The notes below the pieces were generated by a model, which was given only the letters and a program-made list of their open reading frames with translations, did not search any database and was not told where the DNA came from. The translations under genes and the position numbers were made by a program. A stretch of DNA of 64,000 bases from an uncultured Spirochaetota bacterium. GTDB lineage: Bacteria; Spirochaetota; Spirochaetia; SZUA-6; Fen-1364. The DNA lies in the NCBI GenBank assembly GCA_963734545.1, contig CAVTHO010000007.1:128001-192000 (forward strand), written 5' to 3'. Shown piece after piece: positions 6,454-51,670 of the stretch (position 1 is its first letter; every line of letters begins with the position of its first letter).

Positions 6454-6478
6454 GGCGCAGAATCCGCGGAGTACCGCG
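6454..6478 (-). repeat. 24-bp palindromic repeat unit (intergenic copy)
   Basis: ggcgcagaatccgcggagtaccgcg matches the reverse complement of the ftsQ array (cgcggtactccgcggattctgcgcc). Confidence 0.85.
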
Positions 6479-6506
6479 ATGCGCGCCGTGCGCGGCGCTG
6501 GTCATT

Positions 6507-16762: not shown

Positions 16763-17503
16763 ATGCAGATCGACGTCAAGGAAGCAGCCCGTCTCCTCGG
16801 TGTTTCTGAAAAGACCATCTATCGATGGATCAAGCAGGGAGACCTGCCGACCTACAGGATCAATGACCTCTATCGATTCAATCGCGCGGAGCTCCTCGAA
16901 TGGGCCACTGCCCGGCGGGTGGGGGTATCACCCGACATATTCGATGACGGCGGCTCCGCATCGGACGCGCTGCCGGGGCTCGAGGAGGCCATAAAGGCCG
17001 GTGGAATCCACTACCGCGTGGCGGGCACAGCCAAGGAAGAAGTGCTTGCCGCCATCGTGGACCTCATGCATCTGCCGGAAGAGGTGGATCGCAAGTTCCT
17101 CCTCAGCGTCATCCTGGCCAGGGAATCACTCGGATCCACCGGCTTCGGCGGAGGAATCGCGATCCCTCACGTGCGCAATCCCATCGTGCTGCACATTCAG
17201 AGACCGATGATCACCCTTTGTTTCCTGGAGACTCCCGTCGAGTTTGGCGCCATCGATGGAAAGCCGGTGCACACCCTGTTCACCATGGTGAGCCCCACGG
17301 TCAGGGCGCATCTCCACCTGCTCTCCCGGCTCACCTACGGCCTTCGTCTCGGCGAGTTCCGCGGACCGGTGACTGAGCAGGCTTCGCGGGACGCGCTGCT
17401 GGCCGGCGCGCGTTTCGTCGACATTGCCGCCCGGCCCGCGCCGCCGAAGGCGGATTCCGCGCCGCGGTACCCCGCGGATTCCGCATCGCCGAAAGAGGTA
17501 TAG
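16763..17503 (+). CDS. Excisionase-type HTH fused to PTS EIIA (Ntr/Fru-type) domain
   Basis: VKEAARLLGVSEKTIYRWI (HTH_17), ARESLGSTGFGGGIAIPH (phospho-His), FGAIDGKPV. The C-tail carries the repeat peptide ADSAPRYPADSA. Confidence 0.9.
   Translation: MQIDVKEAARLLGVSEKTIYRWIKQGDLPTYRINDLYRFNRAELLEWATARRVGVSPDIFDDGGSASDALPGLEEAIKAGGIHYRVAGTAKEEVLAAIVDLMHLPEEVDRKFLLSVILARESLGSTGFGGGIAIPHVRNPIVLHIQRPMITLCFLETPVEFGAIDGKPVHTLFTMVSPTVRAHLHLLSRLTYGLRLGEFRGPVTEQASRDALLAGARFVDIAARPAPPKADSAPRYPADSASPKEV
17450..17486 (+). repeat. In-frame copy (about 1.5 units) of the 24-bp repeat in the EIIA C-terminus
   Basis: gcggattccgcgccgcggtaccccgcggattccgcat. Confidence 0.8.
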
Positions 17504-17508: not shown

Positions 17509-19542
17509 ATGCTGCTGGTGGTGATGCCTCCCGCCCTGCTGGTCGCGTTCGGCCTCCTCTCCCTCCTCACCGGCCGGCTGCCACGTGTCTCTCACATGGT
17601 GGGTGCCATGGGCGCGGTTGCGGCGAGCATCATGGGCCTGGTCCTGTCCATCGCCGCCCTGGCCCAGGGGCAGACCTACACTATCGCGCTGCAATGGAAC
17701 GCGGCGATCGGCGCTTCCTTCACCGTGGGGTTCGATCCGCTCACGGGGCTCTTTCTCCTTCCGATCTACGGGCTCTCCGCCATCTGCGCGCTGTTCGGCG
17801 CCGGATATCTCGCTCATTTCCGCGGCCACCGCGGCCTGGGGAGCCAGTGGCTCTTTTACGGCCTGCTGGTGGCGAGCATGGCCCTGGTGGTCATGGCAAG
17901 GAACGCGGTCCTTTTCCTGACGGCCTGGGAGCTCATGTCCCTGTCCTCGTGGCTGCTCGTCACCTTCGAAAGCGAACGGGAGGAAGCGCGGCAGGCGGGC
18001 ATCACGTACCTCGTGGCCACGCAGATCGGCACGGCCTTCCTTCTCGTCATGTTCCTTGTCCTCGGCGCTGCCCCTGCTTCCGCCGGATACGGGAGTACCG
18101 GTGCGGGGAATACCCCGTACGCAGGCGCCGCCCTCGATTTCGCCGGGTTCACGCAGCTGCCGGGGCCTGCAGCGGGCGTCGTGTTTCTGCTCGCGCTGGC
18201 GGGTTTCGGCACCAAGGCAGGCATCGTGCCGCTGCACACCTGGCTCCCGGAGGCGCACCCGGCGGCGCCGTCGCACGTGAGCGCCCTGATGAGCGGCGTC
18301 ATGATCAAGACCGGAATCTACGGCATCCTGCGTACGCTCTCCTTTCTCGGCGCGCCTCCCGCGTGGTGGGGATGGACGCTCGCGTGCGTCGGCGCCGTGT
18401 CCGGCATCGTCGGCGTGCTCTTCGCCCTGGCACAGCATGATATCAAGCGGCTGCTGGCCTACCACAGCGTGGAGAACATCGGCATCATCTGCCTCGGCCT
18501 CGGCGTCGGACTTCTCGGCGTGAGCTATGGCGCCCCGCTCGTCGCCGTTCTCGGCTTTGCCGGCGGCCTCCTGCACGTCGTCAACCACGCCTTGTTCAAG
18601 GGACTGCTCTTTCTCGGCGCAGGGGCGGTTGCGCAGGCCGCCGGTACGCGCGAGATGGACAGGCTCGGCGGGCTGTTGAAGAAGATGCCGCTGACGGGCG
18701 CGGCGTTTCTGATCGGCGCCGCAGCCATCTGCGGCCTGCCGCCTCTCAACGGGTTCGTGAGCGAGCTCCTCGTATTCACGGGCGCGTTCAAGGCGGTGAG
18801 CCTGCAGTCCCTGCCGCACGCGGCCGCCGCGGCCGTCGTGGTGGCAGCTCTTGCCCTGGTGGGGGGGCTGGCAGCCGCCTGCTTTACCAAGGCATTTGGA
18901 ATCGTCTTTCTCGGTGAGCCGCGGTCTGCCGCGGCCGCAGACGGGAGAGAGCCAGGGCCTTCCCTGCTCGTGCCGATGCTTCTCCTTGCCGCCGGTTGCG
19001 CGGCGGTCGGTCTCCTCGGCTCCCTTGCGGTCTGGGCCATCGCGCCCCTGGCGGCGCAGCTGGCCGGCCTCCCTTCGTCCGCCGGCACGGGACTGCTCGA
19101 GCCGATGAGAGCGGGTCTGCGCACGGTGCTCGGGATTGCAGGCGTCTTCGCCGGGCTGGTCGCCGCGCTGGCGCTCCTGCGCGCGGTCCTGCTGCGTGGA
19201 CGGAAAGTGACGCGCGAACCGACCTGGGACTGCGGCTACATCAAGCCGGATGCCCGCATGCAGTACACCTCTTCGTCCTTTGCCCAGCCTCTCACGGAGA
19301 TGTTCCGTGGTCTTCTCTCGACGCACAAGCGGGGAGCCCCGATCGGCCGTCTCTTCCCGGTGGAATCGAGCTTCTCCACCGAGACGCCGGATGTTTTTTC
19401 CGTGCGTTTCCTCAGGCCGGGAATCAGGGGCGTGGGCGCGCTTCTCTCCAGCCTGCGCTGGCTGCAGCACGGCAGGCTCCAGCTGTACGTGCTCTATATC
19501 GCTGTTGCCCTCGTTGCGCTCCTCGTGTGGAGGCTTGCCTGA
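17509..19542 (+). CDS. hyfB: Hydrogenase-4 component B-like / antiporter-like membrane subunit (Ehr)
   Basis: FLTAWELMS, GFGTKAGIVPLHTWLPEAHPAAPSHVSALMSG, KRLLAYHSVENIG, PPLNGFVSE, TWDCGY...RMQYTSSSF. Confidence 0.88.
   Translation: MLLVVMPPALLVAFGLLSLLTGRLPRVSHMVGAMGAVAASIMGLVLSIAALAQGQTYTIALQWNAAIGASFTVGFDPLTGLFLLPIYGLSAICALFGAGYLAHFRGHRGLGSQWLFYGLLVASMALVVMARNAVLFLTAWELMSLSSWLLVTFESEREEARQAGITYLVATQIGTAFLLVMFLVLGAAPASAGYGSTGAGNTPYAGAALDFAGFTQLPGPAAGVVFLLALAGFGTKAGIVPLHTWLPEAHPAAPSHVSALMSGVMIKTGIYGILRTLSFLGAPPAWWGWTLACVGAVSGIVGVLFALAQHDIKRLLAYHSVENIGIICLGLGVGLLGVSYGAPLVAVLGFAGGLLHVVNHALFKGLLFLGAGAVAQAAGTREMDRLGGLLKKMPLTGAAFLIGAAAICGLPPLNGFVSELLVFTGAFKAVSLQSLPHAAAAAVVVAALALVGGLAAACFTKAFGIVFLGEPRSAAAADGREPGPSLLVPMLLLAAGCAAVGLLGSLAVWAIAPLAAQLAGLPSSAGTGLLEPMRAGLRTVLGIAGVFAGLVAALALLRAVLLRGRKVTREPTWDCGYIKPDARMQYTSSSFAQPLTEMFRGLLSTHKRGAPIGRLFPVESSFSTETPDVFSVRFLRPGIRGVGALLSSLRWLQHGRLQLYVLYIAVALVALLVWRLA
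18079..18120 (+). repeat. 42-bp palindromic element inserted in-frame in hyfB
   Basis: 38/42 identical to 49336-49377 in topA. Confidence 0.8.
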
Positions 19543-21115: not shown

Positions 21116-22716
21116 TACTCGCCCTCATCGCCCTGCCGGGCTTCGCTGCCATTGCCGCATTTTTCATTCGCTCTCATTCCCTGCGTCGATCTCTCCTCGT
21201 GACGGTCGCCGTTCTGCAGGCAGGCCTTGTCAGCTGGCTGTGGATCGACCCGGCCCGGTTTCCGCCGCTGGGGAGCTGGCTTGCCGCGGATGCGCTGGGC
21301 AGGCTCTTCCTTGCGATTGCCAGCCTGCTGTTTCTGGCGGTCTCCGTGTCCGCCGTCGGGTTCCTTCAGAAGGAGAGCGGCGCGACACGGGCGGACACGG
21401 AGGAGGGATTTCTTTTCGGCAACGCCCCCGAGGCGGTCTTCACCGCCTGTCTGCTCGGGTTTCTCTCCACCATGACGCTCGTGACCGTGAGCCAGCACTT
21501 CGGGCTCCTCTGGGTTTCCATCGAGGCGACCACGCTCGTCAGCGCTCCCCTCATCCACTACCACCGGCACCACAGGTCGCTGGAAGCCACCTGGAAGTAC
21601 CTCCTGGTCTGCTCGGTGGGGATTGCCGTGGCCCTGCTCGGCACCTATTTTCTCGCGGCCTCCGTGCCTTCGGGTATCGGCGCCAAATCCGCCGAATACG
21701 TCGGCGGTTCCGCCGTTTCACTTACGTTCTCCGGGCTCGCACGAAATGCCGCGCGCCTGGACACAGGCTGGCTGAAGGCAGCGTTCCTGCTGCTCCTGGT
21801 GGGGTATGGAACCAAGATGGGGCTGGCGCCCATGCACACGTGGCTTCCCGACGCCCACAGCGAAGCCCCTTCGGTCGTTTCCGCACTGCTCTCCGGTGCG
21901 CTGCTGAACTGCGCCTTCCTGGCCGTGCTCCGCATCCTGTCGGTATGCGCGGCGGCCGGTCTCGGCGGGTTCGGCAGGCAGACCATCCTGGTCCTCGGCC
22001 TGGTCTCGATGGCGGTGGCGGCAGGGCTGATCATCGGCCAACCGGACTACAAGCGGATGCTCGCGTACTCGAGCGTGGAGCACATGGGGATCCTCTGCGT
22101 GGGAATCGGGCTCGGCGGGCTCGGAGACTGGGGCGCCCTCTTCCAGGCGGTCAATCATTCGCTCACAAAGGCCGCGCTCTTTCTCCTGGCCGGCAATTTC
22201 CTCGCTGCGTACGGAACCAAGAAGTCATCCGACGTCGACGGGGCGGTCCGCACCCTGCCGGTCACGGCGGCCTTGTGGATTGCGGGACTCTTTGCCATCA
22301 CCGGTGCACCGCCATTCGGCCTGTTCTCGAGCGAGCTCACGATCCTGCGGGCCGGTGTGAACGCGGGCGCCTGGGCCGTCGTTGCCGTCTACTCCTTTCT
22401 CCTTGCCGCCGTGTTCGTCGGGATGATCACCATGCTCCTGCGAATGGGGAGGAATGCCGCCCTTCCACGGTACGGGAGTGCGCGAGTACGCGCTCGGCCC
22501 GAAGGCCGTACCGGTTCGGCGAATGCGCCGTACACCGCGGCAGGAGGCCTCGGAATCGCGCGCGCCGCCGCCGCGCCGCCCTTGCGCGCCGGTGAGTCGG
22601 TGCTCAGCGTCGCGGCACCGCTCGTCCTCCTGGTCCTCACCGGCGTGCTCGGCCTGTTCATTCCGGGGTTTCTCGACACGGTGTTGAAGCAGGCCGCTCT
22701 TCTGCTGGGGGTATAG
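21112..22716 (+). CDS. hyfF: HyfF-like antiporter membrane subunit
   Basis: LWVSIEATTLVSAPL, SLEATWKY, GYGTKMGLAPMHTWLPDAHSEAPS, KRMLAYSSVEHMG. Confidence 0.9.
   Translation: MILALIALPGFAAIAAFFIRSHSLRRSLLVTVAVLQAGLVSWLWIDPARFPPLGSWLAADALGRLFLAIASLLFLAVSVSAVGFLQKESGATRADTEEGFLFGNAPEAVFTACLLGFLSTMTLVTVSQHFGLLWVSIEATTLVSAPLIHYHRHHRSLEATWKYLLVCSVGIAVALLGTYFLAASVPSGIGAKSAEYVGGSAVSLTFSGLARNAARLDTGWLKAAFLLLLVGYGTKMGLAPMHTWLPDAHSEAPSVVSALLSGALLNCAFLAVLRILSVCAAAGLGGFGRQTILVLGLVSMAVAAGLIIGQPDYKRMLAYSSVEHMGILCVGIGLGGLGDWGALFQAVNHSLTKAALFLLAGNFLAAYGTKKSSDVDGAVRTLPVTAALWIAGLFAITGAPPFGLFSSELTILRAGVNAGAWAVVAVYSFLLAAVFVGMITMLLRMGRNAALPRYGSARVRARPEGRTGSANAPYTAAGGLGIARAAAAPPLRAGESVLSVAAPLVLLVLTGVLGLFIPGFLDTVLKQAALLLGV
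21677..21706 (-). repeat. In-frame repeat copy in a hyfF loop (GAKSAEYVG)
   Basis: 28/30 identical to 34541-34570. Confidence 0.75.
22471..22533 (+). repeat. 42-bp-family element with nested 30-bp hairpin insert, in-frame in hyfF
   Basis: tacgggagt + [22480-22509] + accggttcggcgaatgcgccgtac. The flanks match 18088-18120. Confidence 0.65.
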
Positions 22717-26897: not shown

Positions 26898-27124
26898 GCA
26901 CGGATGCCGAGCGGCGCCGAGTACATGGATGCGTAGGGCGGCAGGCGGCTGCGTAGCAGACGCCGAGAGCCTACGGAAGGCGCCGCGTAGACAGGATGTC
27001 GAGGTCGAGCGAGTACAGGGATGTGCGGAAGGAGGCCGTAGACTCCGCGGTATTCCGCGGAGTTGGATGCCGAGCGGCGCCGAGTACACGAGGTCGGAAG
27101 GCGCCGCTAGACACGGATGTCGAG
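26892..27124 (+). repeat. Composite GTAG-tagged REP-like element (BIME-like)
   Basis: Modules gtaggcacggatgcc, gtagacaggatgtc and gtag-actccgcgg-tatt-ccgcggagt. Internal duplications at 26902-26925 and 27065-27088. Confidence 0.85.
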
Positions 27125-29064: not shown

Positions 29065-30117
29065 ATGGCATTACCAGTTTTCCGTCCGACCGTGAAGAGG
29101 AAGGACATGGGCAGCGTCCTGTCCTGCATCGTATCCGACAAGATCGGCCCCGGCGAAATATCCCGGGAGCTTGTTGCACGCGCGTGCCACCTGCTGGGAC
29201 ATGCCGGAGGTGTCACGCTCCGCAATTCCTACCTCGCCCTTTCTGTGGCGCTTGAAGCCCTTGGGCTGGGCCCGTCGGACCCGGTCATCCTGCCCGCCCT
29301 TTCTCCCTCCCTCTGGCTGCGCGTGCTCCTGGACAAGGGAATGGTGCCGCTCGTGGCCGATGTCGAGCTCGAATCCGGAACCATCGATCCTCAGCAAGTC
29401 GCTGCTCTGGCGCAGAAGGGGGCAAAGGCCATACTCGTGCCCCACACCCTCGGCATCATCGCCGACATCGAGAGTCTGCGGGCGCACGGGATTCCCCTGC
29501 TGGAAGATGCGTCGCAGGGACTGGGCGGCAGGATCGGGGAGCTTCCCTGCGGCGGCGCGGCGGACATCTGTCTCATCTCCCTGGACCCCGAGGACATCGT
29601 GACCTGCGGCGGCGGCGCGCTCGTCCTGGCCCGGCAGAAACCAGTGGCAGCGGCGCTGCGGAAGACGCAGGAGGGATCGCCGCTGCACTCTCCGCTCATG
29701 GACATGAACGCGGCCCTGGGAATATCGCAGCTCGCGGCGCTGGAGAGCTTTGTCGGCGCCCGTCGGGAAATCGCGCTTGTCTACGGTCAGTCGCTGCTGA
29801 GGTCGCGGCATGCGTCCCTGGTCCAGAAGACACAGAATTCGCCGGGTACGGCGATGCTCGACGCGGAGAGCGTCCTGTCGTCCTTTCCCGTCGCATTGGC
29901 GGACGGCATGAAGGAAGTGCGCCAGTACGCGCTCAAGAAGAACGTCGACACGGCGCCCGCCTTCGCGGACACCATTGCCGCCCTGGAGGAATCTCCGGCA
30001 GCCCACTGCGCCAACGCCCGGTCACTCGTGCTGCGCTGCCTGCTTTTCCCGCTGTACCCCATGCTGGGAAAGCGCGACGTGGAGGCGGTTTGCAAGGTCC
30101 TGGCCACCCTGCCGTAG
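29065..30117 (+). CDS. DegT/DnrJ/EryC1/StrS aminotransferase-like protein lacking the PLP lysine
   Basis: KAILVPHTLG, LLEDASQGLG, AALGISQL, LFPLYPML. The expected SFxxxK motif reads SLDPEDIVTCGGG. Confidence 0.8.
   Translation: MALPVFRPTVKRKDMGSVLSCIVSDKIGPGEISRELVARACHLLGHAGGVTLRNSYLALSVALEALGLGPSDPVILPALSPSLWLRVLLDKGMVPLVADVELESGTIDPQQVAALAQKGAKAILVPHTLGIIADIESLRAHGIPLLEDASQGLGGRIGELPCGGAADICLISLDPEDIVTCGGGALVLARQKPVAAALRKTQEGSPLHSPLMDMNAALGISQLAALESFVGARREIALVYGQSLLRSRHASLVQKTQNSPGTAMLDAESVLSSFPVALADGMKEVRQYALKKNVDTAPAFADTIAALEESPAAHCANARSLVLRCLLFPLYPMLGKRDVEAVCKVLATLP
29833..29856 (-). repeat. Degenerate in-frame 24-bp repeat copy (QNSPGTAM)
   Basis: cagaattcgccgggtacggcgatg is 20/24 identical to 6458-6481. 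Confidence 0.6.
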
Positions 30118-30334
30118 GCAGGGATGCCGAGGGCGAGCGAGGTCAGGGATGGCCTTGAGCGAGCCCGTAGCCCTTCCGCGGTACTCCGCGGAGTTGGATG
30201 GCGAGGGCCGACGAGCACAGGGATGCGCAGCACGCCGAAGGCGTGGGGAGGGCGGCAGGCGGCTGCGGAGCAGACGCCGAGAGCCTGCGAAAGGAGGCCC
30301 GTAGCCCTTCCGCGGTACTCCGCGGAGTGGGATG
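30112..30334 (+). repeat. Second composite GTAG-tagged REP-like element
   Basis: gtaggcagggatgccgag. 38-bp direct repeat at 30163-30200 and 30297-30334 (1 mismatch) containing ccgcgg-tact-ccgcgg. Module 30250-30286 is 36/37 identical to 26936-26972. Confidence 0.88.
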
Positions 30335-33826: not shown

Positions 33827-34340
33827 TCAGTGCGTGGGCGCCGGGCCTTTCTCTCCTGTCGTGTCCTTCAGCCCATGCAGAGAATCCCTGGGGATCAGCT
33901 CGCCGATCGTGGTCGTCAGGTACTTTCCGTCCCTGCCCGCATAGTACACGGGCGTCTCCGGCGGGCAGAACTCGCTGAGCGCCTGCCGGCATGCGCCGCA
34001 GGGAGAGACCGGCGCGTCGGCGGCAGGGCAGAATACCGCGACCGCGCGGAAGCTCGTCTTGCCCTGTGAGACGGCGGCGAAGAGCGCGCTTCTCTCCGCG
34101 CAATTGCTGAGACCGAACGACCTGTTCTCCACGTTCGCGCCCGTCACGATGCTTCCATCCGCGCACAGGAGCGCGGCGCCGACGGGGAACCGCGAGTAGG
34201 GCGAGTAGGTGAAGCGTGCCGCGTCACGCGCCCTGCCGATCAGCTCACTCTGCAGAGGGATTCTGCGCTGACGTACTCGGCGGATTCTGCGCTGACGTAC
34301 TCGGCGGATTCTGCGCCGATGTATCCGGCGGATTCTGCAT
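33827..34340 (-). CDS. cdd: Cytidine deaminase with repeat-derived N-terminal extension (1-base frameshift near 34258)
   Basis: YSPYSRFPVGAALL, GANVEN, CAERSA, SPCGACRQ. SD GGAGG and ATG at 34340 are one base out of frame. Confidence 0.9.
34258..34339. repeat. Tandem array of about 3.4 x 24-bp units
   Basis: ggattctgcgctgacgtactcggc x2, then ggattctgcgccgatgtatccggc and ggattctgca. Confidence 0.92.
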
Positions 34341-34393: not shown

Positions 34394-35505
34394 TTGGCAT
34401 TTTCCGTCAAAAAGAAACGACCAGCGCGCGTCTTCTTCGTCGCACTCATCGTCATCGTACTGTATTTCGTCCTCTTTCCCTATCCCCTGGGACGCGAGAT
34501 CGTTGCGAAGCCCGTCTGGTCAGTGACCTTACCGGATCCTTCGGCGCCGAATCCGCCGAGTACGTCGGCGCAGGCGCCTGACGGCGCAAAGACGACTGCC
34601 GCGCCCTTTCAGCTCGGTGACCTTTTCGGCTATGTCGGCGGCAGACGGGGGTATCCTGCATGCGGAGAAGGCGCTCTTCCGGGTGGCGCTTTCCGAGGCG
34701 GGATTCGTGAACTACACCCGGCTGGGAACGAACTGGATTCTCCAGAATACGCGGGGCGCGCGCGTCTTCCGCTTTTCAGGCTTTGGCTATCCCCTTCTGA
34801 GCAGGGACGGCAGAAGGATATTCATCCTCAAAGCCGATCTGAGCGGCATCATCGAGCTCGACCGGGCAGGTGATATGCTGTGGAGCAGGGATTTTTCCGC
34901 GCTCCTGACCAGCGTGTCCGTGCCGGGGGACTCTCTGCTGGTCGGTCTGCTGAACGGAACTCTTCTCCTTTTGGACGAGCCGGGGATCACCGGTGTACGA
35001 ACAGGTGATGGGGGGGAGCCGTCTCCCCGTGATACTCGGTGCCGCGGTCTCGACGGACGGCTCGCTCATGGCTTCGGTCTCCGGCATCGCTCCTCAATTC
35101 CTGACCGTGCTGCGCCGGCAGGGCTCGGGCTACGGGGAGATCGCGAAGGAGGTTCTTGCGTCGGATTTCCGCCGCGAAGCGCGGGTGAGTTTTTCCCCCG
35201 ACTCGCGCTACCTGCTCGTCGAGGGCGAGCGAGCCGCGGGAGTTTTCGATCCCGCTGCCCCGCGGCTCGCCTGGCTGCCCCTGCCGGGGGGCCTTGCGGA
35301 GGTGGCCTTCCCGGGCGGCGGCCGGTTCACCGCCGTGGCTGCGCACAGCGGCACGCTCGTGCAGCTCCGAGTCGTTCGTCCCTTCACTTCCCCGATCATC
35401 GACGCGACCTTCTCCGCGCAGCAGCTCTTTCTCGGGACCGTCGAAGGGGATCTCCTCCTGGGAATGGATGGCCGGCTGCTCAGGATAGGGATGGTGGAGC
35501 TCTGA
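34394..35505 (+). CDS. Membrane-anchored beta-propeller-like protein (frameshifts near 34641 and 34980)
   Basis: N-terminal TM, then three consecutive frames (34319, 34617, 34993) with WD-like motifs (SRDGRRIF, STDGSLMA, FSPDSRYL). TTG start. Confidence 0.7.
34541..34570 (-). repeat. In-frame repeat copy (SAPNPPSTSA)
   Basis: tcggcgccgaatccgccgagtacgtcggcg matches the cdd array and the hyfF copy. Confidence 0.8.
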
Positions 35506-42585: not shown

Positions 42586-43692
42586 ATGGAACGCGTCGAA
42601 AAAGAACGCAGCGATATGCTCCTCGTGATGCTCGTTGTCGCCGTTCTGGGCGTCGGTGTCGCGCTCCTGTTCTCCAGCTCCTACCCGTTCGCAAGCCGCG
42701 TGTACAGGGATCCCCTCTATCTCGTCAAGCGGCAGCTTCTGTGGGCGGGGCTCGGCGCGGTGGCGGCATTCGTGCTCTCCCTGACGCCGCTGGAGGTCTT
42801 TCGCCGTTCCATGCCCCTGATCCTGCTCGGCACGCTGGCCGTGGCGGTGCTGCCGTTCGTGCCGGTCCTGGGCGCGTCGGTGCTCGGATCCCGGCGCTGG
42901 ATCACCCTCTTCGGCCTTTCCTTTCAGCCTTCCGAGCTCGTGAAGGTCACCCTGATCCTCTATCTCGCCTCCTATTTCGCCAACCGGGAAGGGGCGGCGA
43001 CCATGTCGCTCAACTCTCTCATTCCCCCCTTCATAGTCATTTGCGTGTTTTCGGCCATCATCCTTCTGCAGAACGACTACTCGACGTCGATCTTTGTCCT
43101 GACGATCGGGCTCGCCATGCTTTACGTCGCCCGGGTGCGGGGCCTGCATCTGCTGGTGGTGACGCTCTTCACCGTGCCGATGGGGTTTCTTCTCCTTTTC
43201 ACCCGCGAGCACCGGGTGCAGCGTCTCCTGGCGTTTCTCGATCTGTCCTCGTATCGCTCAGGGACCGGCTACCAGATCGTCAACGCGAAGTCCGCGCTGG
43301 TGAGCGGCGGCCTGTGGGGCAAGGGACTGGGAAGGAGCACGGCAAAGCTGGGCTCGCTTCCCATGGCGCATTCGGATTTCATCTACGCCGTCATCGGCGA
43401 GGAGACGGGCCTTCTGGGAGCGCTCTTCGTGCTCGCCCTGTTCGCGCTGCTCGTCTGGCGGGGCTTTCAGATCGCCTTCCACACGGAAGACCATTTTTCC
43501 TACCTCGTCGCGTTCGGTGTCACCGCCTCCCTGGGCCTGCAGGCGCTTCTCAACATGGCCGTGGCCGTGGGTCTGGTTCCGACGACCGGAGTCACGCTTC
43601 CGTTCTTTTCCGCCGGCGGGTCGTCCCTGTTCGTGACCCTCGTCATGTGCGGGCTGCTGGTGAACGTGTCGCGGAGGGCTTCGCATGTCTAG
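42586..43692 (+). CDS. ftsW: SEDS peptidoglycan polymerase FtsW
   Basis: RRWI, FQPSELVK, HSDFIYAVIGEE, PTTGVTLPFFSAGGSS. Confidence 0.95.
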   Translation: MERVEKERSDMLLVMLVVAVLGVGVALLFSSSYPFASRVYRDPLYLVKRQLLWAGLGAVAAFVLSLTPLEVFRRSMPLILLGTLAVAVLPFVPVLGASVLGSRRWITLFGLSFQPSELVKVTLILYLASYFANREGAATMSLNSLIPPFIVICVFSAIILLQNDYSTSIFVLTIGLAMLYVARVRGLHLLVVTLFTVPMGFLLLFTREHRVQRLLAFLDLSSYRSGTGYQIVNAKSALVSGGLWGKGLGRSTAKLGSLPMAHSDFIYAVIGEETGLLGALFVLALFALLVWRGFQIAFHTEDHFSYLVAFGVTASLGLQALLNMAVAVGLVPTTGVTLPFFSAGGSSLFVTLVMCGLLVNVSRRASHV

Positions 43693-44674
43693 CGTCTTCG
43701 CGCTTCGCGACAGGACGGGCAGGCGCGAGGAAAGACCGTTCTCTCGATGGGCGCGGCCCTTTCTTGTCATCCTCTCCGCGCTCTGCGCCCTCGCGCTGTT
43801 TGCGCGATTTGCCGCCGTGCCGATCATGGAGATCCGCCACGTCGTGGTGCAGAGCGACATGCCGCTCACGGACGCGCAGGTTCTCGCGATATCGGGAATT
43901 CATGGTGACGAGCACTGGTACTCGATTGCCACGACGGACATACAGAAGCGCCTCGAGGCAAATCCCCTGATCCGCCGGGCGGAAGTGCGGAGGATATTCC
44001 CCAATACGGTGCACATGAGCGTGTGGGGACGCCAGCCGGCGGCGCTCGTTCTGGCCGCCTCGGCCGGGCGCAGTCTCCCCGTTCTGGTCGACGGGGACGG
44101 GGTCGTCTTCAAGATCTGTACCACCGCTGCCGAAGTCGACCTCCCGGTCATCACCGGGCTCGACGTGGGAGAGACGGGCCTGGGCGACAGGCTTCCACAC
44201 GCGTACGCATCCCTGTTCGCGGACCTGAAAGCCCTGCGGGAGCGCGCTCCTTCCCTGTACCGGCTGGTATCCGAGGTGCGCATCATTGCGCCGCGGTACT
44301 CCGCGGATTCTGCGCCGCGGTACTCCGCGGATTCTGCGCCGCGGTACTCCGCGGATTCTGCGCCGAGAGACACGGCATCCGCTGCGAGCTTCGACATGCT
44401 GCTCTATCTCACCAATTCCCAGGTGCCCGTGCGCGCCCGAGGCGCGATCGACGAAAGCCTGCTGAAGTACACTCTCATGGTCCTGGACCTCTTGTCGAAG
44501 CAGGGCATTGTGCAGGATATTCAGGAACTCGACTTTCGGAGCGGGAACGTGGTCTACAGAATGAGTGCGCGGAGTACCGACGCCGCGAGTGCGCGGAGTA
44601 CCGACGCCGCGAATGCGCGGAGTACCGACGCCGCGAATGCGCGGAGTACCGACGCCGCGTTGAAGGGGGGATAG
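43685..44674 (+). CDS. ftsQ: FtsQ/DivIB with two tandem repeat insertions
   Basis: TM, POTRA (LEANPLIRRAEVRRIFPNTV), DLPVITG, ELDFR; located between ftsW and ftsA. Confidence 0.9.
   Translation: MSSVFALRDRTGRREERPFSRWARPFLVILSALCALALFARFAAVPIMEIRHVVVQSDMPLTDAQVLAISGIHGDEHWYSIATTDIQKRLEANPLIRRAEVRRIFPNTVHMSVWGRQPAALVLAASAGRSLPVLVDGDGVVFKICTTAAEVDLPVITGLDVGETGLGDRLPHAYASLFADLKALRERAPSLYRLVSEVRIIAPRYSADSAPRYSADSAPRYSADSAPRDTASAASFDMLLYLTNSQVPVRARGAIDESLLKYTLMVLDLLSKQGIVQDIQELDFRSGNVVYRMSARSTDAASARSTDAANARSTDAANARSTDAALKGG
44288..44365 (+). repeat. 3 x 24-bp perfect tandem repeat in ftsQ (APRYSADS)
   Basis: gcgccgcggtactccgcggattct x3 + gcgccg. Confidence 0.97.
44564..44659 (-). repeat. 4 x 24-bp tandem repeat at the ftsQ 3' end (S/N-ARSTDAA), inverted variant
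   Basis: a(g/a)tgcgcggagtaccgacgccgcg x4. Its reverse complement shares cggtactccgcg with the first array. Confidence 0.95.
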
Positions 44675-47298: not shown

Positions 47299-48258
47299 AT
47301 GGCTGACACGAACGCCCGCACCCCCGCAGCTGATGGCTTTGCCGACTACCTGTCGGCGGAGCGCGGCCTCTCGCCGACCACGGTCGCCACGTACGCCTCG
47401 GAGGCACGCGGGTTCGAGGCCTTTCTCGCGCGCTGCGGGAAGGAGGCTGCGCAGGCCGACGTGGGGGACATCGAGGCATACATGACCGAGCGCCGCGTGC
47501 ACAACATCGACTCCCGTACGCTGGCAAAGGCGGCATCTGCGATTCGGTCCTTCTATCGCTATCTCGTGCTGGAAGGGAAAATCGAAACCAATCCGGCGCG
47601 CCTGGTGGATGCCCAGCGGGTGACGATGAGAATCCCCCGTTTCCTGCAGGAGGAGGAAATCCAGAGACTCCTCGATGCCTGTGACCCCGGCCAGCCTCTC
47701 GGCATCAGGGACCGCGCGCTTTTCGAGCTGATCTACTCCTGCGGTCTGCGCGTGAGCGAAGCGGTGAATCTTACCGTGGATCGTATTTCGATGCCCGAGG
47801 CGGCACTGCGCGTCATGGGCAAAGGATCCCGGGAGAGGATGGTTCCGCTGGGAGAGCGCGCCAGGAAGCAGCTCGAATTGTATCTCTCGTCTGCGCGCCC
47901 TGCGCTCGCTGGCCGGGCTCCCGTGAACGAGTTGTTTCTCGGACGGGGCGGAAAGAAACTTTCTCGCAAGACGGTCTGGAAGTGCTTCAAGCGGCTGGCC
48001 ATTCTCGCGGGACTGGACGCAAAAGTGCATACCCTGCGTCACTCATTCGCGACGCACCTCCTGCAGGGCGGGGCGGACCTGCGTTCCGTCCAGGAGCTCC
48101 TCGGCCACGCGGATATCGGCACCACGCAGATCTACACGCACGTCAGCCAGGAAGTCTTGAAGAAAACCCATGAAGAGTTCCATCCCCGCGGCACCCCCCA
48201 CGACGCCGCACCGCGGCACTCCGCGGATTCTGGCGCACACGATCGGGGCGCGCCGTGA
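47299..48258 (+). CDS. xerD: Tyrosine recombinase XerD
   Basis: [57 protein letters not shown]. Confidence 0.88.
   Translation: MADTNARTPAADGFADYLSAERGLSPTTVATYASEARGFEAFLARCGKEAAQADVGDIEAYMTERRVHNIDSRTLAKAASAIRSFYRYLVLEGKIETNPARLVDAQRVTMRIPRFLQEEEIQRLLDACDPGQPLGIRDRALFELIYSCGLRVSEAVNLTVDRISMPEAALRVMGKGSRERMVPLGERARKQLELYLSSARPALAGRAPVNELFLGRGGKKLSRKTVWKCFKRLAILAGLDAKVHTLRHSFATHLLQGGADLRSVQELLGHADIGTTQIYTHVSQEVLKKTHEEFHPRGTPHDAAPRHSADSGAHDRGAP
48208..48231 (+). repeat. In-frame 24-bp copy in the xerD tail (APRHSADS)
   Basis: gcaccgcggcactccgcggattct is 22/24 identical to the ftsQ unit. Confidence 0.85.
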
Positions 48259-49298
48259 AAGCCGGAAATCCGATTTTGCCGTTAGAGAAAGGCATGAATA
48301 AACATGAAAAAACATGCCTGCTGGGACTCTCTACGGTGGAATTCCTCACGCCGCGCGAAAAGCTTGCGCTCATGGAGATGCGGGGCGGGCCCTTGGAGCT
48401 TCTGGACCTCACGCTGCGCGACCTCGGAAGGCTGACCGGCAGAAAACTCCGCACCGCGCCGTGGAATCCGGAACAAATTCTCCGCGCCGGGGAGGAGATT
48501 GAAAAGCGCTTGACCGAGGGCGGGATGGAGAGCATCTTTTACTCGGACACGGCGTACCCACCGCAGCTTCGCGAGATCTATGATCCGCCCGTGACGCTTT
48601 TCCTTCGCGGATCGCTTCCCGACAACGGACTTCTTCTCGCAGGGATCGTCGGAACGCGTTTTCCCACCGGCGCGGCGCGTACGGCGGGGTTTCGGCTCGG
48701 CTTTGAGCTGGGCAGAGAGGGGATCGGGGTCGTTTCCGGACTCGCGCGAGGCATCGACAGGGAAGCGCATGAGGGGTGCACCGAGGCAGGGGGTATCTCG
48801 GTGGCCGTGCTGGGAAACGGCATCGACCTGATTTACCCCGCGTCCAGCTCGTCCGCAGGTCACGCCATCCTGCAGCGCGGCGGGGCCATTCTCAGCGAAT
48901 ACCCGCCGGGGATACCGCCCCTGCGTTATCACTTTCCCGCAAGAAACCGGATCATAAGCGGTTTGTGTCGGTCTGTGGTGGTGGTGCAGGCGCCGGAGCG
49001 TTCCGGAGCGCTTATCACCGCGGAATACGCGTTGGATCAGGGAAGGGACCTCTATGTGCACGCTGCCGGGACCGTGGGGACCGCAGGAGCGGGCACGCGC
49101 CGGTTGGCGGAGTCAGGAGCACCAATCATCCGCGGGAGTGCCGAGATCTTGAGGGATTGGGGAATGAAACCGCGCGCGGATCGAGCTTGTCTCCTGCCGA
49201 AAGAGCTGCCCGAGGGCGAGCGGCTTGCCGCTGTTTTAAAGGAAGAAATCGCTGGTGCCTGCGCCACAAGAGGCGGGGAAACCTACTGGAGAGCATGA
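48255..49298 (+). CDS. dprA: DNA processing protein DprA/Smf
   Basis: YPPQLREIYDPP, VVSGLARGID, FPARNRIISG, SGALITA. Confidence 0.95.
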   Translation: MKAGNPILPLEKGMNKHEKTCLLGLSTVEFLTPREKLALMEMRGGPLELLDLTLRDLGRLTGRKLRTAPWNPEQILRAGEEIEKRLTEGGMESIFYSDTAYPPQLREIYDPPVTLFLRGSLPDNGLLLAGIVGTRFPTGAARTAGFRLGFELGREGIGVVSGLARGIDREAHEGCTEAGGISVAVLGNGIDLIYPASSSSAGHAILQRGGAILSEYPPGIPPLRYHFPARNRIISGLCRSVVVVQAPERSGALITAEYALDQGRDLYVHAAGTVGTAGAGTRRLAESGAPIIRGSAEILRDWGMKPRADRACLLPKELPEGERLAAVLKEEIAGACATRGGETYWRA

Positions 49299-51670
49299 TG
49301 CAGACAGAAAATCCGCGGGATACCGCAATGCCGAGTTCGCCGGATACGGGAGTACCTGTTCGGGGAGTACCCCGTACCGCGGTAGACAGCGAGCACGACG
49401 CCGGCATGAAAACTCCGGCGAAGAAACCGCGGGGTACGGCGCCGAAGAAACCGCGGAGCACGGCGGCGCGCAAGCCACGGCACACACTCCTCATCGTCGA
49501 GTCGCCCGCAAAAGGCAAGACAATCGAGAAGTATCTGGGCAAAGGCTACACCGTGGCGGCCTCCATGGGTCATCTCATCGACCTGCCCAAGTCGCGTCTC
49601 GCTATCGACGTGGAGGACACATTCGAGCCCGAGTACATCACCGTCCGCGGCAAGGCGAAGATCCTCAAGGATCTGAAGCAGCAGGCGAAAAAGGCGGACG
49701 CGATCCTCCTTGCCTCGGATAATGACCGGGAAGGGGAGGCAATCTCCTTCCATCTGAGAAATACGCTGCAGAACGGAACGACCGAGAAAAGCATCCAGCG
49801 CATCACATTCAATGAGATCACTCCCAAGGCCATCCGGGAGGCCGTGGCACATCCTGGCCTCATCGATATGTCCAAGGTCAATGCGCAGAAGGCCCGGCGC
49901 GTTCTGGACAGGCTTGTGGGGTACTATCTCTCACCGCTTCTGTGGAAGAAAGTGAAGAACGGCCTCTCCGCGGGAAGGGTGCAGTCCGTTGCGCTCCGGC
50001 TCATCTGTGAGCGCGAAGCTGAGCTCGAGGCCTTCATCCCTGAAGAGTACTGGAGCCTGGACGCCGAGCTGCGTAAAGGCAAGCACCACTTCATGGCCCA
50101 GCTGGTCGGCATCGCCGGGGCAAAGCCCGCGCTGACGACGGAAAAAGCCACCGGGGAGTGCATCGAAGCTCTGCAGAACATGGCGTTCCGCGTGGCGGAG
50201 GTGAAGATTTCCGAGAAGATCTCCCGGCCCCGGGCCCCCTTCACGACCTCCACCCTGCAGCAGACGGCGGCGAACAGATTCGGCTTCACGGCGCGCAAGA
50301 CCATGCAGATCGCGCAGGGTCTCTACGAAGGGGTGAATATCGGCGCCCAGCGGCTGGGCCTCATCACCTACATGCGCACCGACTCCACGCGTATTGCGGA
50401 GAGTGCGCTCGCCGAGGTGCGGGAATACATCGGGAAGGAATTCCCGGAGGACCTTCCCGAATCGCCCGTCCTGTACGCGGCGGGCAAAGGCGCGCAGGAC
50501 GCCCACGAGGCCATCCGCCCCACCTATGTGACACGCACGCCCACCGAGTTGAAGAAGCACCTGACCTCGGAAGAGTTCCGTCTGTATTCCATCATTTGGG
50601 AGAGGTTCGTTTCCTCGCAGATGTCTCCTTCGAAGGCCAGCACCACGAGCGTGGATTTTTCAGCCGGTGAATACCTCTTCCGTTCATCCAGCACAAAAGT
50701 GGTGGAGAAGGGTTTCCAGAAGGCTCTCTCTCTCCTGGCTTCGAAGGAACAGACCAAGGCGCTTCCCCCGCTGGAGACCGGTGAGGAGGTGGAGCGGGTG
50801 AAGCTCATTCCGGAGCAGCACTTCACCATGGGACCCCCGCGCTTCACGGATGCGACAATCGTGAAAACCCTGGAAGAGAAAGGGATCGGAAGGCCGTCCA
50901 CGTACGCGCCCATCATCTCGGTCCTGCTGGACCGCTACTACGTGGTGCGCAAGGCACGCCAGCTCATTCCGACCATTCTCGGCAAGATCATCAACGACAT
51001 GCTCAGCAAGTCTTTTCCCGAGCTTCTGGACCCCAACTTCACCGCGGCCATGGAGCTTCGTCTGGACGAGGTGGAAGAAGGCAAGACCGAATGGCACGCG
51101 ATGATCCGTGACTTCTACGGTCCATTCCGGGACAAGGTGGCATCGGTCCAGGAGACTCTCGAATCGGTGAAGGGCGTGATGGACGAGCCGACGGACGTCG
51201 TCTGCGACGTGTGCGGAAGGCCCATGGTGAAGAAGCTGGGGCGCTTTGGCTTCTTCATCGCCTGCACGGGATTTCCAGAATGCAAGAACACGAAGCCGGT
51301 GCCGCTGGCGGCCTGTCCCCGGCCGGGCTGCGGCGGGCAGATCGTGGCGCGCAAGAGAAAGCGCGGCAGGGGGCGCGAGTTCTACGGCTGCACCAACTAC
51401 CCGACGTGCGATTTCGTGACGTATTTCAAGCCCACGGACTCCAAATGCCCCAAGTGCGGCTGGTTTCTCGTGGAGAAGGAAGACCGGCAGCGCGGGGCGT
51501 ACAGGACCTGCATCAACCCGTCGTGCGACTACCTGCACAGCAAGGAAATGCCGCTGGGAGCGGCCGGGGAAATGCCCCAGCCGCATCAGCACGCCGGGGG
51601 CGGCCGGCGACGAGGAGGAAGACCCCTCATCAGCAGAGAGAGTGCCCGCGGGGGCAGGAGCCGAAGGTGA
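49295..51670 (+). CDS. topA: DNA topoisomerase I with repeat-derived N-terminal extension
   Basis: IVESPAK, DNDREGE, SAGRVQ, LITYMRTDS (catalytic Tyr), GIGRPSTY, C-terminal Zn ribbons. The tail probably has an indel near 51598. Confidence 0.97.
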   Translation: MMQTENPRDTAMPSSPDTGVPVRGVPRTAVDSEHDAGMKTPAKKPRGTAPKKPRSTAARKPRHTLLIVESPAKGKTIEKYLGKGYTVAASMGHLIDLPKSRLAIDVEDTFEPEYITVRGKAKILKDLKQQAKKADAILLASDNDREGEAISFHLRNTLQNGTTEKSIQRITFNEITPKAIREAVAHPGLIDMSKVNAQKARRVLDRLVGYYLSPLLWKKVKNGLSAGRVQSVALRLICEREAELEAFIPEEYWSLDAELRKGKHHFMAQLVGIAGAKPALTTEKATGECIEALQNMAFRVAEVKISEKISRPRAPFTTSTLQQTAANRFGFTARKTMQIAQGLYEGVNIGAQRLGLITYMRTDSTRIAESALAEVREYIGKEFPEDLPESPVLYAAGKGAQDAHEAIRPTYVTRTPTELKKHLTSEEFRLYSIIWERFVSSQMSPSKASTTSVDFSAGEYLFRSSSTKVVEKGFQKALSLLASKEQTKALPPLETGEEVERVKLIPEQHFTMGPPRFTDATIVKTLEEKGIGRPSTYAPIISVLLDRYYVVRKARQLIPTILGKIINDMLSKSFPELLDPNFTAAMELRLDEVEEGKTEWHAMIRDFYGPFRDKVASVQETLESVKGVMDEPTDVVCDVCGRPMVKKLGRFGFFIACTGFPECKNTKPVPLAACPRPGCGGQIVARKRKRGRGREFYGCTNYPTCDFVTYFKPTDSKCPKCGWFLVEKEDRQRGAYRTCINPSCDYLHSKEMPLGAAGEMPQPHQHAGGGRRRGGRPLISRESARGGRSRR
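49307..49468. repeat. Cluster of repeat units in the topA 5' end
   Basis: 24-bp variants at 49307-49330, 49421-49444 and 49445-49468, plus the 42-bp element at 49336-49377. Confidence 0.8.

What the first reader, a model, noticed from the sequence alone, without database searches (positions are those of the whole stretch)
6454..49468. A 24-bp palindromic repeat, open in all six frames, has invaded many unrelated protein genes in-frame
Seen: the unit gcgccgcggtactccgcggattct (hairpin CCGCGG-tact-CCGCGG) and variants occur intergenically at 6454, 27042, 30175 and 30309. They also occur inside CDSs: EIIA tail (17450, APRYPADS), hyfF (21677, AKSAEYVG), DegT-like (29833, QNSPGTAM), cdd N-terminus (34258, QNPPSTSA), propeller protein (34541, PNPPSTSA), ftsQ (44288 APRYSADS x3; 44564 ARSTDAA x4), xerD tail (48208, APRHSADS) and topA N-terminus (49307, 49421, 49445). 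The DNA is conserved while the peptide differs with strand and frame, so the element spreads as DNA. In tandem it has no stop codon in any frame (APRYSADS, RRGTPRIL, AAVLRGFC, RIRGVPRR, ESAEYRGA, NPRSTAAQ), and its length is a multiple of 3. Known parallel: Rickettsia palindromic elements inserted in proteins. Inference: a lineage-specific, translation-safe selfish micro-element that remodels housekeeping proteins. I know of no description of this in spirochaetes.
Basis: partly seen in the sequence, partly recalled or inferred. Interest (0 to 1): 0.88.

Follow-up and report, generated by a model that had tools for sequence, protein, structure and literature searches.

The report
Tiny hairpin repeat colonising spirochaete genes
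A 22-30 base hairpin-forming DNA repeat has multiplied to several hundred copies in one group of uncultured spirochaetes; most copies lie between genes, but dozens sit in frame inside real proteins, much like the palindromic repeats already known from Rickettsia and other bacteria.

Summary
The repeat is real and far above chance. The exact core occurs 9 times in the window against 0.04 in shuffles. A pair-aware scan of the 5.14 Mb genome finds 445 copies at 316 loci, against 3 in the reversed-genome control.

It is a 6-bp stem, a TAYY loop and a 6-bp stem, followed by ATT. The stems covary and the loop stays constant.

About two thirds of copies are intergenic, roughly ten times denser than in genes. 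135 copies (96 loci) lie in called ORFs, in loops, linkers and termini of genuine proteins.

Orthologue alignments show clean in-frame insertions and copy-number changes between sister species in DegT, FtsQ, a HyfF-like protein, TopA and ScpA.

Tandem spacing is a multiple of 3 in 36 of 38 coding intervals but only 39 of 90 intergenic ones. The arginine-rich frames are nearly absent inside proteins. So 3n length and frame are a selection filter, not a design feature.

The family is confined to one genus.

No RAYT, GTAG/CGTC tag, target duplication or strand bias was found. It is a new variant of REP/RPE-type repeats.

The parts
6459..6482 (-). single class-A unit, intergenic between two minus-strand ORFs
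   Evidence: 34.9 bits
17438..17498 (+). C-terminal tail of an HTH_17 + PTS_EIIA_2 protein (16763-17503). It holds a GAA-loop variant unit, one TACC-loop unit (17459-17482) and a partial unit. The order of the units differs in G022.
21681..21707 (-). unit inside the HyfF-like Proton_antipo_M protein (21112-22716), read as AKSAEYVG. G022 has two units, G002 a decayed one, and three other congeners none.
22461..22540 (+). a different, roughly 75-nt composite repeat made of several AGTA-loop hairpins, in frame in a C-terminal loop of the same protein; absent from G007/G008 orthologues
   Evidence: 17 blast hits in G000
27036..27066 (+). class-B unit (…CT-CCGCGG-TATT-CCGCGG-AGTTGGATG), intergenic; no counterpart in the aligned G022/G002 DNA
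29833..29859 (-). clean 27-nt insertion in the DegT-like aminotransferase, read as (T)QNSPGTAM. Present in G000 and G022. Absent from G002 and from all other congeners that aligned at this position.
30167..30197 (+). class-B unit, intergenic downstream of DegT
30301..30331 (+). class-B unit, intergenic upstream of the NAD kinase gene
34258..34337 (+). array of three 24-nt units upstream of cdd (minus strand) and next to a promoter-like TTGACA-N17-TACCAT (my reading of the sequence). G022 has four units, G002 half a unit. Not in the cdd reading frame as claimed.
34544..34572 (-). single unit inside an unverified ORF (34319-34873); partly missing in G022, degenerate in G002
44288..44359 (+). three exact 24-nt units in FtsQ (43685-44674), read as APRYSADS x3, after the POTRA domain. 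G022 has one unit, G002 a degenerate one, and the other aligned congeners none.
44564..44659 (-). four degenerate 24-nt units (hairpin broken) forming the FtsQ C-terminal tail, read as (S/N)ARSTDAA x4. Copy number is 6, 2 or 0 in congeners. Two congeners carry SAEYRD (another frame) at the same place.
48208..48231 (+). unit in the C-terminal extension of the XerD-like recombinase (47299-48258; Pfam domain ends at aa 284, unit at about aa 303-311). G022 has three units there, one of them inverted.
49307..49468 (-). N-terminal extension of TopA built from decayed units (ENPRDTAM, VRGVPRTA, KKPRGTAP, KKPRSTAA). The start ATGATG at 49295-49300 is conserved. Five congeners have a short repeat-free leader. 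A relative 95% identical in TopA has a different set of units.
55850..55880 (-). class-C unit (CCACGG-TATT-CCGTGG-CATTTCC) upstream of fliF. In G022 a second unit is nested inside its loop.

Best explanation
This is a genus-restricted family of very small (about 22-30 nt) non-coding palindromic repeats of the REP/RPE kind. A unit has a short 5' lead (GCG, CCTT or CGG), a 6-bp GC-rich stem, a TAYY loop, the complementary stem, and an ATT-containing tail.

Shown:
- Units appear at new sites as discrete 22-27 nt insertions.
- They then multiply locally by tandem duplication, sometimes taking a few flanking bases along. This explains the range of array spacings (20-42 nt, mostly 23-28).
- They can land inside the loop of an existing unit.
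- They decay by point mutation and partial deletion.
- They differ in presence or copy number at most orthologous sites between species about 88% identical in DNA.

Inferred:
- Insertion is roughly indifferent to coding status and strand.
- Selection then removes coding insertions that break the frame, that read as the arginine-rich frames, or that hit structured parts of a protein.
- What survives in genes is therefore 3n-long, lies in loops, linkers and termini, and encodes small polar or Gly/Ala/Pro-rich peptides.
- The element is most likely neutral to mildly deleterious 'junk', not a functional module.

Unknown: the agent that moves it. Either a trans-acting enzyme that recognises single-stranded hairpins, or a replication template-switch process, would fit.
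For: Abundance and chance: (445 copies against 3 in the control).

Hairpin with covarying stems:
- 274 of 445 copies are perfect 6/6 and 120 more are 5/6, with 19 distinct stem sequences.
- Selecting sites only by loop and tail gives 97 of 542 perfect stems, against 10.5 expected with shuffled partners.
- Loops TACT, TACC and TATT are enriched several-fold over other loops.

Extragenic bias: 303 copies intergenic, 135 in ORFs and 7 on edges, with about 81% of the genome called coding.

Real host proteins:
- 8 of 10 window ORFs tested, and 19 of the 20 host ORFs I fetched out of 33 hosting the 34 robust internal loci, have Pfam domains.
- Hosts include UvrD, a Mur ligase, NadE, an MFS transporter, MacB/FtsX and a histidine kinase.

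Insertions absent from orthologues:
- DegT: 27 nt absent from G002 and from all other congeners that aligned at the site.
- FtsQ: 3 units against 1 or 0.
- HyfF-like protein, TopA leader, ScpA tail.

Turnover between G000 and G022 at orthologous sites:
- Of 24 G000 loci, 6 had the same number of units, 7 a different number and 11 none in G022.
- Of 29 G022 loci, the figures were 8, 8 and 13.

Selection filter:
- Array spacing is a multiple of 3 in 36 of 38 coding intervals and 39 of 90 intergenic intervals.
- G000-G022 length differences are a multiple of 3 at 6 of 8 loci called CDS. One exception carries no indel at the element; the other lies after a stop codon. For intergenic loci the figure is 4 of 16.
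- Among 34 internal loci with coding flanks on both sides, the two arginine-rich frames occur once. One third would be expected; the binomial p is about 2e-5 by my arithmetic.

Array growth that includes flank: (the G022 locus where GGCTTCA is repeated).

Nesting: (site 55858).

Genus restriction.

Independent short-read contigs reach from unique FtsQ sequence into the array on both sides without differences (run X1). That run may be the source sample.
Against: - No mobilising gene was found. The only Y1/HUH transposase in G000 is an ordinary IS200-like copy with its own, different terminal hairpins and no elements beside it.
- G002 carries 103 pattern matches and no Y1 gene in a 96%-complete assembly.
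- No target-site duplication or consistent target sequence was seen in the clean empty/filled pairs. Transposition in the strict sense is therefore not shown.
- Neutrality is inferred. A conserved loop with covarying stems could also mean that something reads the hairpin.
- My gene calls come from a home-made codon-usage caller, so coding and intergenic counts are approximate.
- The assembly is a metagenome-assembled genome (89% complete, 4.9% contamination). Single-base indels, as at scpA-scpB, may be errors.
Confidence: 0.72

Rival explanations
1. The hairpins are functional DNA signals, bound or cut by a host protein. Candidates are nucleoid organisation, uptake-signal-like self-recognition, or recombination sites. 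Their spread would then be driven by that function, and the coding copies would be tolerated by-products.
For: - Constant loop (TAYY) and tail (ATT) with freely covarying stems, which is the pattern expected when a protein reads a hairpin.
- No strand bias relative to transcription (54 against 68) or GC skew (65 against 53). This fits a double-strand or strand-symmetric signal.
- A slight excess in convergent intergenic regions (20% of loci against 12% of intergenic bp).
Against: - Presence and copy number differ at most orthologous sites between close relatives.
- 6 of 20 congeners have no match at all.
- Density is low (about 1 per 11.5 kb) and patchy, with local tandem arrays.
- Covarying stems can also arise without selection, through intrastrand templated correction in palindromes (my knowledge, not tested).
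Confidence: 0.12
2. The units act as RNA structures, such as 3'-end stabilisers, terminators or attenuators, as proposed for classical REPs.
For: - GC-rich stable stem-loops.
- In tandem-gene intergenic regions they lie somewhat closer to the upstream gene's end: median 59 nt against 108 nt, and 71 against 51 loci.
Against: - No orientation preference relative to transcription (54 same, 68 opposite).
- No depletion from divergent promoter regions (24% of loci against 25% of bp).
- No match in the window to any Rfam family.
- I did not see a T-run after the hairpin in the sequences I inspected. This is my reading of the logos and was not formally scanned.
Confidence: 0.07
3. The coding copies are protein-level repeats selected for what the peptide does, such as flexible linkers or tails, and the DNA similarity is secondary.
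For: - Coding copies sit in linkers and tails.
- They encode low-complexity polar or Gly/Ala/Pro-rich peptides.
- Copy number varies as in known linker repeats.
Against: - The same DNA unit is read in at least five of the six frames in different proteins.
- At the FtsQ C-terminal tail, different species carry two different frames.
- 68% of copies are non-coding.
- Peptide sequences are unrelated across frames while the DNA is conserved.
Confidence: 0.03
4. Assembly or binning artefact of a metagenome-assembled genome.
For: - The genome is a MAG.
- Short-read unitigs break in the arrays, and one joins across two units of the FtsQ tail array.
Against: - The same family, at orthologous and non-orthologous sites, occurs in 14 independently assembled congeners.
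- Junctions are supported by independent contigs.
- Coding arrays keep the frame.
Confidence: 0.01

Closest known systems
REP elements (repetitive extragenic palindromes) and their RAYT transposases, including the GTAG and CGTC super-families of Di Nocera et al. 2013 (PMC3733652; abstract and passages read)
   Same: - 20-40 nt GC-rich stem-loops, hundreds of copies, mostly extragenic.
- Heterogeneous stems and loops within a family, and a short unpaired tail.
- Copy number very uneven between related species.
- A minority inside ORFs, including replication and repair genes (UvrD here too).
- CGTC REPs likewise lack a dedicated transposase.
   Different: - No GTAG or CGTC tag in class A.
- No RAYT.
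- Neighbours are almost always head-to-tail: 147 direct against 12 inverted pairs. The paper reports head-to-head dimers as predominant and head-to-tail as negligible.
- No depletion from divergent regions.
- The stem is only 6 bp.
Rickettsia palindromic elements (RPE). RPE-4 and RPE-6 are equated with CGTC REPs in PMC3733652. That RPE-1 is about 100-150 bp and was first reported by Ogata et al. 2000 is recalled, not read here.
   Same: Palindromic repeats inserted in frame into many unrelated, often essential proteins, adding peptide segments at tolerated sites. Lineage-restricted.
   Different: - Much shorter unit.
- Free-living, GC-rich host with a 5 Mb genome rather than a reduced intracellular genome.
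- Frequent in-frame tandem arrays with copy-number differences between sister species.
- All six frames observed.
MITEs (e.g. Correia/NEMIS, ERIC; reviews PMC10969869 and PMC3184786, seen in search listings only)
   Same: Non-autonomous small repeats that can extend or interrupt ORFs.
   Different: MITEs are usually 100-400 bp with terminal inverted repeats and target-site duplications (recalled). Here a unit is a single 16-nt hairpin with short flanks, and no duplication was seen in the clean empty/filled pairs.
IS200/IS605-family ends
   Same: The IS200-like copy in G000 and in two congeners ends in a hairpin (…AAATCCACCGCC-loop-GGCGGTGGATT…). Its stem core CCACCG/CGGTGG and its ATT tail equal one element variant. 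Genomes with at least 9 pattern matches more often carry a Y1 gene or fragment (9 of 11) than those with fewer (3 of 10).
   Different: - Different loop, an 8-12 bp stem, and no TTAG-like ends on the small units.
- No replication-strand bias.
- G002 and G010 have many units and no Y1 gene.
- The genomes compared are related and incomplete, so the association is weak.

Membership tests
REP (repetitive extragenic palindrome) | short (about 20-40 nt) GC-rich imperfect palindrome present in many copies | tested here: met
   16-nt hairpin plus conserved flanks from -3 to about +26; 445 copies
REP (repetitive extragenic palindrome) | predominantly extragenic | tested here: met
   303 of 445 copies lie in the roughly 19% of the genome called intergenic
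REP (repetitive extragenic palindrome) | conserved GTAG or CGTC tetranucleotide at one end (the two super-families of PMC3733652) | tested here: not met
   Logos of 80 class-A, 87 class-B and 70 class-C singletons show GCG, CCTT or CGG leads and ATT tails. A weak T[A/G]G about 6-8 nt upstream occurs in part of class B only.
REP (repetitive extragenic palindrome) | associated RAYT (REP-associated tyrosine transposase) flanked by REPs | tested here: not met
   PF01797 gives one hit in G000, an IS200-like gene with its own hairpins and no census copy between C4:150000 and 170000. The genome is 89% complete.
REP (repetitive extragenic palindrome) | inverted (head-to-head) doublets / REPINs predominate | tested here: not met
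   Neighbours within 150 nt: 147 direct, 12 inverted
Rickettsia-type RPE | in-frame insertion into unrelated protein-coding genes, absent from orthologues | tested here: met
Rickettsia-type RPE | sequence or size relationship to RPE families | not tested
   No RPE sequence was at hand. The unit here is 22-30 nt.
MITE | terminal inverted repeats plus target-site duplication | tested here: not met
   No duplication at the DegT site or at three clean G022-only insertions. The sample is small.
IS200/IS605-derived miniature element | subterminal hairpins matching those of a resident Y1 transposon, with a strand-biased distribution | tested here: inconclusive
   Partial hairpin similarity; no strand bias; weak co-occurrence

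The most novel reading that the evidence does not exclude
The units are the smallest class of actively moving bacterial DNA yet seen. On this reading, single 22-27 nt hairpins are inserted as discrete pieces by a hairpin-reading mechanism that is not a RAYT. They land preferentially next to the TA of existing hairpin loops. This builds nested multi-hairpin composites, such as the roughly 75-nt repeat in the HyfF-like protein. Because they carry no stops, they are able to colonise essential genes and even weld neighbouring genes together, as in the scpA-scpB single ORF of this genome.
Probability: 0.2. Interest if true: 0.8.

Novelty: new variant of a known kind. Interest (0 to 1): 0.55.

Why it matters
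It adds a free-living, GC-rich, uncultured spirochaete lineage to the few cases where palindromic repeats visibly remodel proteins. The affected proteins include cell-division, topoisomerase, repair and cell-wall enzymes.

Sister species differ in copy number at the same sites. This gives a natural before-and-after series for asking how proteins tolerate random peptide insertions and how such repeats move without a known transposase.

There are practical consequences for annotation. Gene callers will mis-set starts and stops and may fuse genes around these stop-free units. Short-read assemblies will break or collapse at them.

Tried and rejected
- Structure mapping. AlphaFold2 of the DegT-like protein with an 11-sequence genus alignment gave mean pLDDT 44. 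The model is unusable, so 'inserts lie in loops' rests on alignment gaps and Pfam domain borders only.
- PDB sequence search for DegT. The first try at E 1e-20 found nothing. At 1e-3 the printed alignments stop before the insert.
- Rfam on the whole window: 0 matches.
- RAYT search: only IS200-like Y1 genes.
- Target-site duplication or a common target: none seen. One nested insertion and several nested structures share the junction TA|CCTT…AG|TT. However, most 'outer stems' are just neighbouring array units.
- Strand bias relative to transcription, gene-strand majority or GC skew: none.
- 'Stop-free by design': weakened by the 38% background. Random 16-mers with a central TA are stop-free only 26% of the time, against 80-91% of the hairpins. 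But the copies are one family, not independent trials.
- Expression: no RNA holder was listed among the sequencing runs.
- Read support: only Logan contigs could be laid, so copy numbers inside arrays could not be checked.
Additional file 3 of PMC3733652 (the list of intragenic REPs) could not be seen and may name spirochaete cases.
- Literature. Two full-text searches found no description of this family. RepRanger (PMC12306157, passages read) reports REPs in three cultured Spirochaetota, but the passages I saw give no sequences.
- Rows dropped. Census copies below 16 bits were excluded, as were copies whose loop no longer starts with TA; several such copies are visible in G022. The census is therefore an undercount.
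- Subfamily labels A, B and C drifted together during model iteration and are descriptive only.
- Of the 33 host ORFs carrying the 34 robust internal loci, I fetched and scanned 20.

Full report
WHAT IS THERE.

The window is G000:C7:128001-192000 of a 5.14 Mb, 10-contig, 62-63% GC genome. The genome is 89% complete with 4.9% contamination. Record titles of its nearest relatives call them uncultured Spirochaetota MAGs.

- CCGCGG-N4-CCGCGG occurs 9 times in the window against 0.04 in shuffles.
- The 24-mer with up to 3 mismatches occurs 7 times against 0.
- Words from it are the commonest 12-, 16- and 20-mers of the whole genome.

Among all perfect hairpins with a 6-bp stem and a 4-nt loop in the genome, the loops TACT/AGTA, TACC/GGTA and TATT/AATA stand out. 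They come with several different but always complementary stems: CCGCGG, CCACGG/CCGTGG, GCGCGG/CCGCGC, CCGCCG/CGGCGG, TCACGG/CCGTGA and others.

I trained three pair-aware position models on the perfect copies. Their flanks were roughly GCG…ATTCTG, CCTT…AGTTGG and CGG…CATTC. I scanned both strands, using the reversed genome as control. At 16 bits or more there are 445 copies against 3.
- 274 copies have perfect stems and 120 have one mismatch, with 19 distinct stem sequences.
- Choosing sites by loop and tail alone, 97 of 542 have perfect stems against 10.5 with shuffled partners.
- Conservation runs only from about -3 to +26 around the 16-nt hairpin, so a unit is 22-30 nt.
- The 445 copies form 316 loci: 237 singletons and 79 head-to-tail arrays of 2-6 units.

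WHERE THE COPIES LIE.

No gene predictor was available. I wrote a codon-usage caller trained on long GC3-rich ORFs. It,378 genes and about 81% of the genome as coding.

By this caller, 303 copies are intergenic, 135 are inside ORFs and 7 straddle an edge. Intergenic density is therefore roughly ten times the coding density.

By locus, 217 are intergenic and 96 are in ORFs. The 96 break down as follows:
- 34 are internal, with clear coding signal in the same frame on both sides.
- 33 lie within 40 codons of the C-terminus.
- 12 lie within 40 codons of the called start.
- 17 have a weak flank.

Pfam confirms the window hosts: HTH+EIIA, a Proton_antipo_M subunit, DegT, FtsQ (POTRA), a XerD-like integrase and TopA.

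Pfam also confirms 19 of the 20 internal hosts I fetched, out of 33 host ORFs. They include UvrD, DUF4147/MOFRL, an ABC fusion, PMT_2, MFS, glyoxalase, an adenylate cyclase, a xanthine-dehydrogenase-type protein, a response regulator, MacB/FtsX, ScpA-ScpB, a Mur ligase, NadE, an Lhr-like helicase, an AraC regulator and a histidine kinase. The units fall between domains or in gaps of the domain alignments.

Intergenic loci are spread over tandem, divergent and convergent regions about as intergenic base pairs are (56/24/20% of loci against 63/25/12% of bp). They show no preference of strand relative to transcription (54 against 68) or GC skew (65 against 53). Neighbouring copies are direct 147 times and inverted 12 times.

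ARE THE CODING COPIES INSERTIONS?

Yes, where I could check.

- DegT. G000 has exactly 27 extra nucleotides (TQNSPGTAM). They are absent from G002 (91% protein identity) and from all other congeners that aligned at the site, and shared with G022.
- FtsQ. APRYSADS occurs three times in G000, once in G022, degenerate in G002 and not at all in the rest. The C-terminal tail (S/N)ARSTDAA occurs 4 times in G000, against 6, 2 or 0 elsewhere. Two species carry the same DNA family read as SAEYRD.
- HyfF-like protein. AKSAEYVG is missing in three congeners, doubled in G022 and decayed in G002.
- TopA. Six congeners share the start context …LLE(N/S)MM. Five of them have a short leader free of repeats. 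G000 has 63 residues before LLIVESPAK, built from decayed units. A relative 95% identical in TopA has a different set of units. The dprA stop overlaps this ATGATG.
- ScpA. A unit in the C-terminal tail is shared with G022 and absent from G002.

To measure turnover I fetched 447 kb of G022, about 88% identical in DNA to G000.
- Of 24 G000 loci with an orthologous site, 6 have the same number of units in G022, 7 a different number and 11 none.
- Of 29 G022 loci, the figures are 8, 8 and 13.
- Some 'empty' sites keep half a unit, so both gain and loss occur.

WHAT SELECTION DOES.

Array spacing is a multiple of three in 36 of 38 intervals inside ORFs, but in only 39 of 90 intergenic intervals, where 23, 25 and 26 nt are common.

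G000-G022 length differences tell the same story:
- They are multiples of three at 6 of 8 loci called CDS. The two exceptions are a locus with no indel at the unit and a locus that lies after a TAG stop.
- They are multiples of three at 4 of 16 intergenic loci.

Among the 34 robust internal loci the frames are ESAEYRGA 12, NPRSTAA 9, APRYSADS 6, AAVLRGFC 6, RIRGVPRR 1 and RRGTPRIL 0. In C-terminal tails all six frames occur.

The unit is therefore not built to be translated. Insertions that keep the frame and avoid arginine-rich peptides are simply the ones that remain.

The stop-free property of the consensus is real but shared by 38% of random 24-mers here. 62% of intergenic units and 76% of coding units are stop-free over 28 nt.

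HOW IT SPREADS.

Shown:
- Discrete 22-27 nt insertions.
- Tandem duplication that can include flanking bases. One G022 locus repeats unit+GGCTTCA where G000 has a single GGCTTCA.
- One insertion of a unit into the TATT loop of another (site 55858). At least six similar nestings exist in G000.
- Composite repeats of 50-75 nt made of several such hairpins, one of them in frame in the HyfF-like protein.

Not shown: the agent.
- PF01797 finds one Y1 transposase in G000. It is an IS200-like gene whose end hairpins resemble one stem variant plus the ATT tail but differ in loop and length.
- Genomes with many units more often have a Y1 gene, but G002 (103 matches) and G010 (25 matches) have none.
- No target duplication, common target or strand bias was seen.

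I therefore commit only to this: a REP-like non-autonomous repeat, inserted by an unidentified hairpin-dependent process, amplified by slippage and filtered by selection.

DISTRIBUTION.

- CCGCGGTAYYCCGCGGATT is found in 12 of 20 congeners and in none of 20 genomes from other genera of the order.
- The degenerate SCRCSGTAYYCSGYGSATT is found in 14 of 20 congeners, with 1 to 130 matches each. It gives one non-complementary hit among 4 family members of other genera, and none in 67 genomes of seven other families.
- Nearly all listed matches have complementary stems although the pattern did not require it.
- The six congeners without matches group together in the FtsQ alignment. This suggests one origin inside the genus.

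COMPARISON WITH WHAT IS KNOWN.

Di Nocera et al. 2013 (PMC3733652; abstract and passages read) describe GTAG- and CGTC-tagged REPs. They report intragenic REPs in several species, with the most in O. terrae and R. conorii. Many lie in replication and repair genes, and they equate RPE-4 and RPE-6 with CGTC REPs. They also report CGTC REPs in Spirochaetes, and that CGTC REPs lack a transposase. Head-to-head dimers predominate in their families.

The present family shares the kind but not the tags, the dimers, the RAYT or the positional bias. It forms in-frame head-to-tail arrays. Two full-text searches found no description of it. I file it as a new variant of a known kind.

- The cdd claim fails. 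The Pfam match of ORF 33827-34147 starts at profile position 39. The frame continues through the array as RIRRVRQR… with no start codon. G002 has ATG, and G022 has TTG one codon upstream, where G000 reads CTG ATC.
- The 'propeller' host is unverified.

READ SUPPORT.

Contigs of one public run match, without differences, from unique FtsQ sequence into the first unit (44049-44313) and from the last unit onward (44336-44565). One contig skips two units of the tail array. That run may be the source sample. A second run has a diverged contig reaching into the first unit.

Noticed in passing
G000:C7:623892-625070 (outside the window; loci L127, L134): scpA and scpB form one 392-aa ORF in this genome only. 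The 18 congeners with matches show two genes, or a stop between them. A unit sits in the ScpA tail. A 1-nt deletion just 5' of it, relative to G022, shifts ScpA into the ScpB frame, and no stop intervenes. This is either a real fusion or a long-read indel error.
   Followed up: partly
window 33827-34340, minus strand: cdd appears to lack a canonical start codon in this genome. G002 has ATG, and G022 has TTG one codon upstream, where G000 reads CTG ATC. The three-unit array begins a few codons upstream. Possibilities are a non-canonical start, a damaged gene or an assembly error.
   Followed up: partly
window 22461-22540 and 18079-18129: Two longer repeats (about 75 and 50 nt; 17 and 11 blast hits in G000, many more in G022 and G002) made of several AGTA/AATA-loop hairpins with other stems. 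The first is in frame in the HyfF-like protein and absent from G007/G008 orthologues.
   Followed up: partly
genome-wide, e.g. window 30350-30375: A second hairpin family with a constant CAGGA loop and variable stems (AATG-YCGC-CAGGA-GCGR-CCG), 15-21 exact copies of its commonest 16- and 20-mers.
   Followed up: no
genome-wide: Two AT-richer 20-mers (GGCAACTGAACTCTATGTTA, 19 copies; ACAAATCGTTGCAGTTGTCC, 18 copies), probably parts of a longer repeat or a CRISPR-like array. Not located.
   Followed up: no
G000:C4:159300-160200: A low-GC IS200-like insertion sequence, the only Y1 transposase in the assembly. Its terminal hairpins are CCACCGCC-TAT-GGCGGTGG and CCACCGCC-TCT-GGCGGTGG-ATTC. Two IS200 types exist in the genus.
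   Followed up: yes
window 49295-49300: The dprA stop (TGA) overlaps the conserved ATGATG start of topA, suggesting translational coupling.
   Followed up: no
window 34617-35591 and 34319-34873: An N-terminal membrane-anchor ORF and a downstream 324-aa ORF with beta-propeller-like sequence are in different frames. My caller chose a third frame (34993-35505). There may be frameshifts in this region.
   Followed up: no
whole genome: The dinucleotide TA is 2.7 times rarer than AT (165,644 against 445,635 occurrences on both strands).
   Followed up: no
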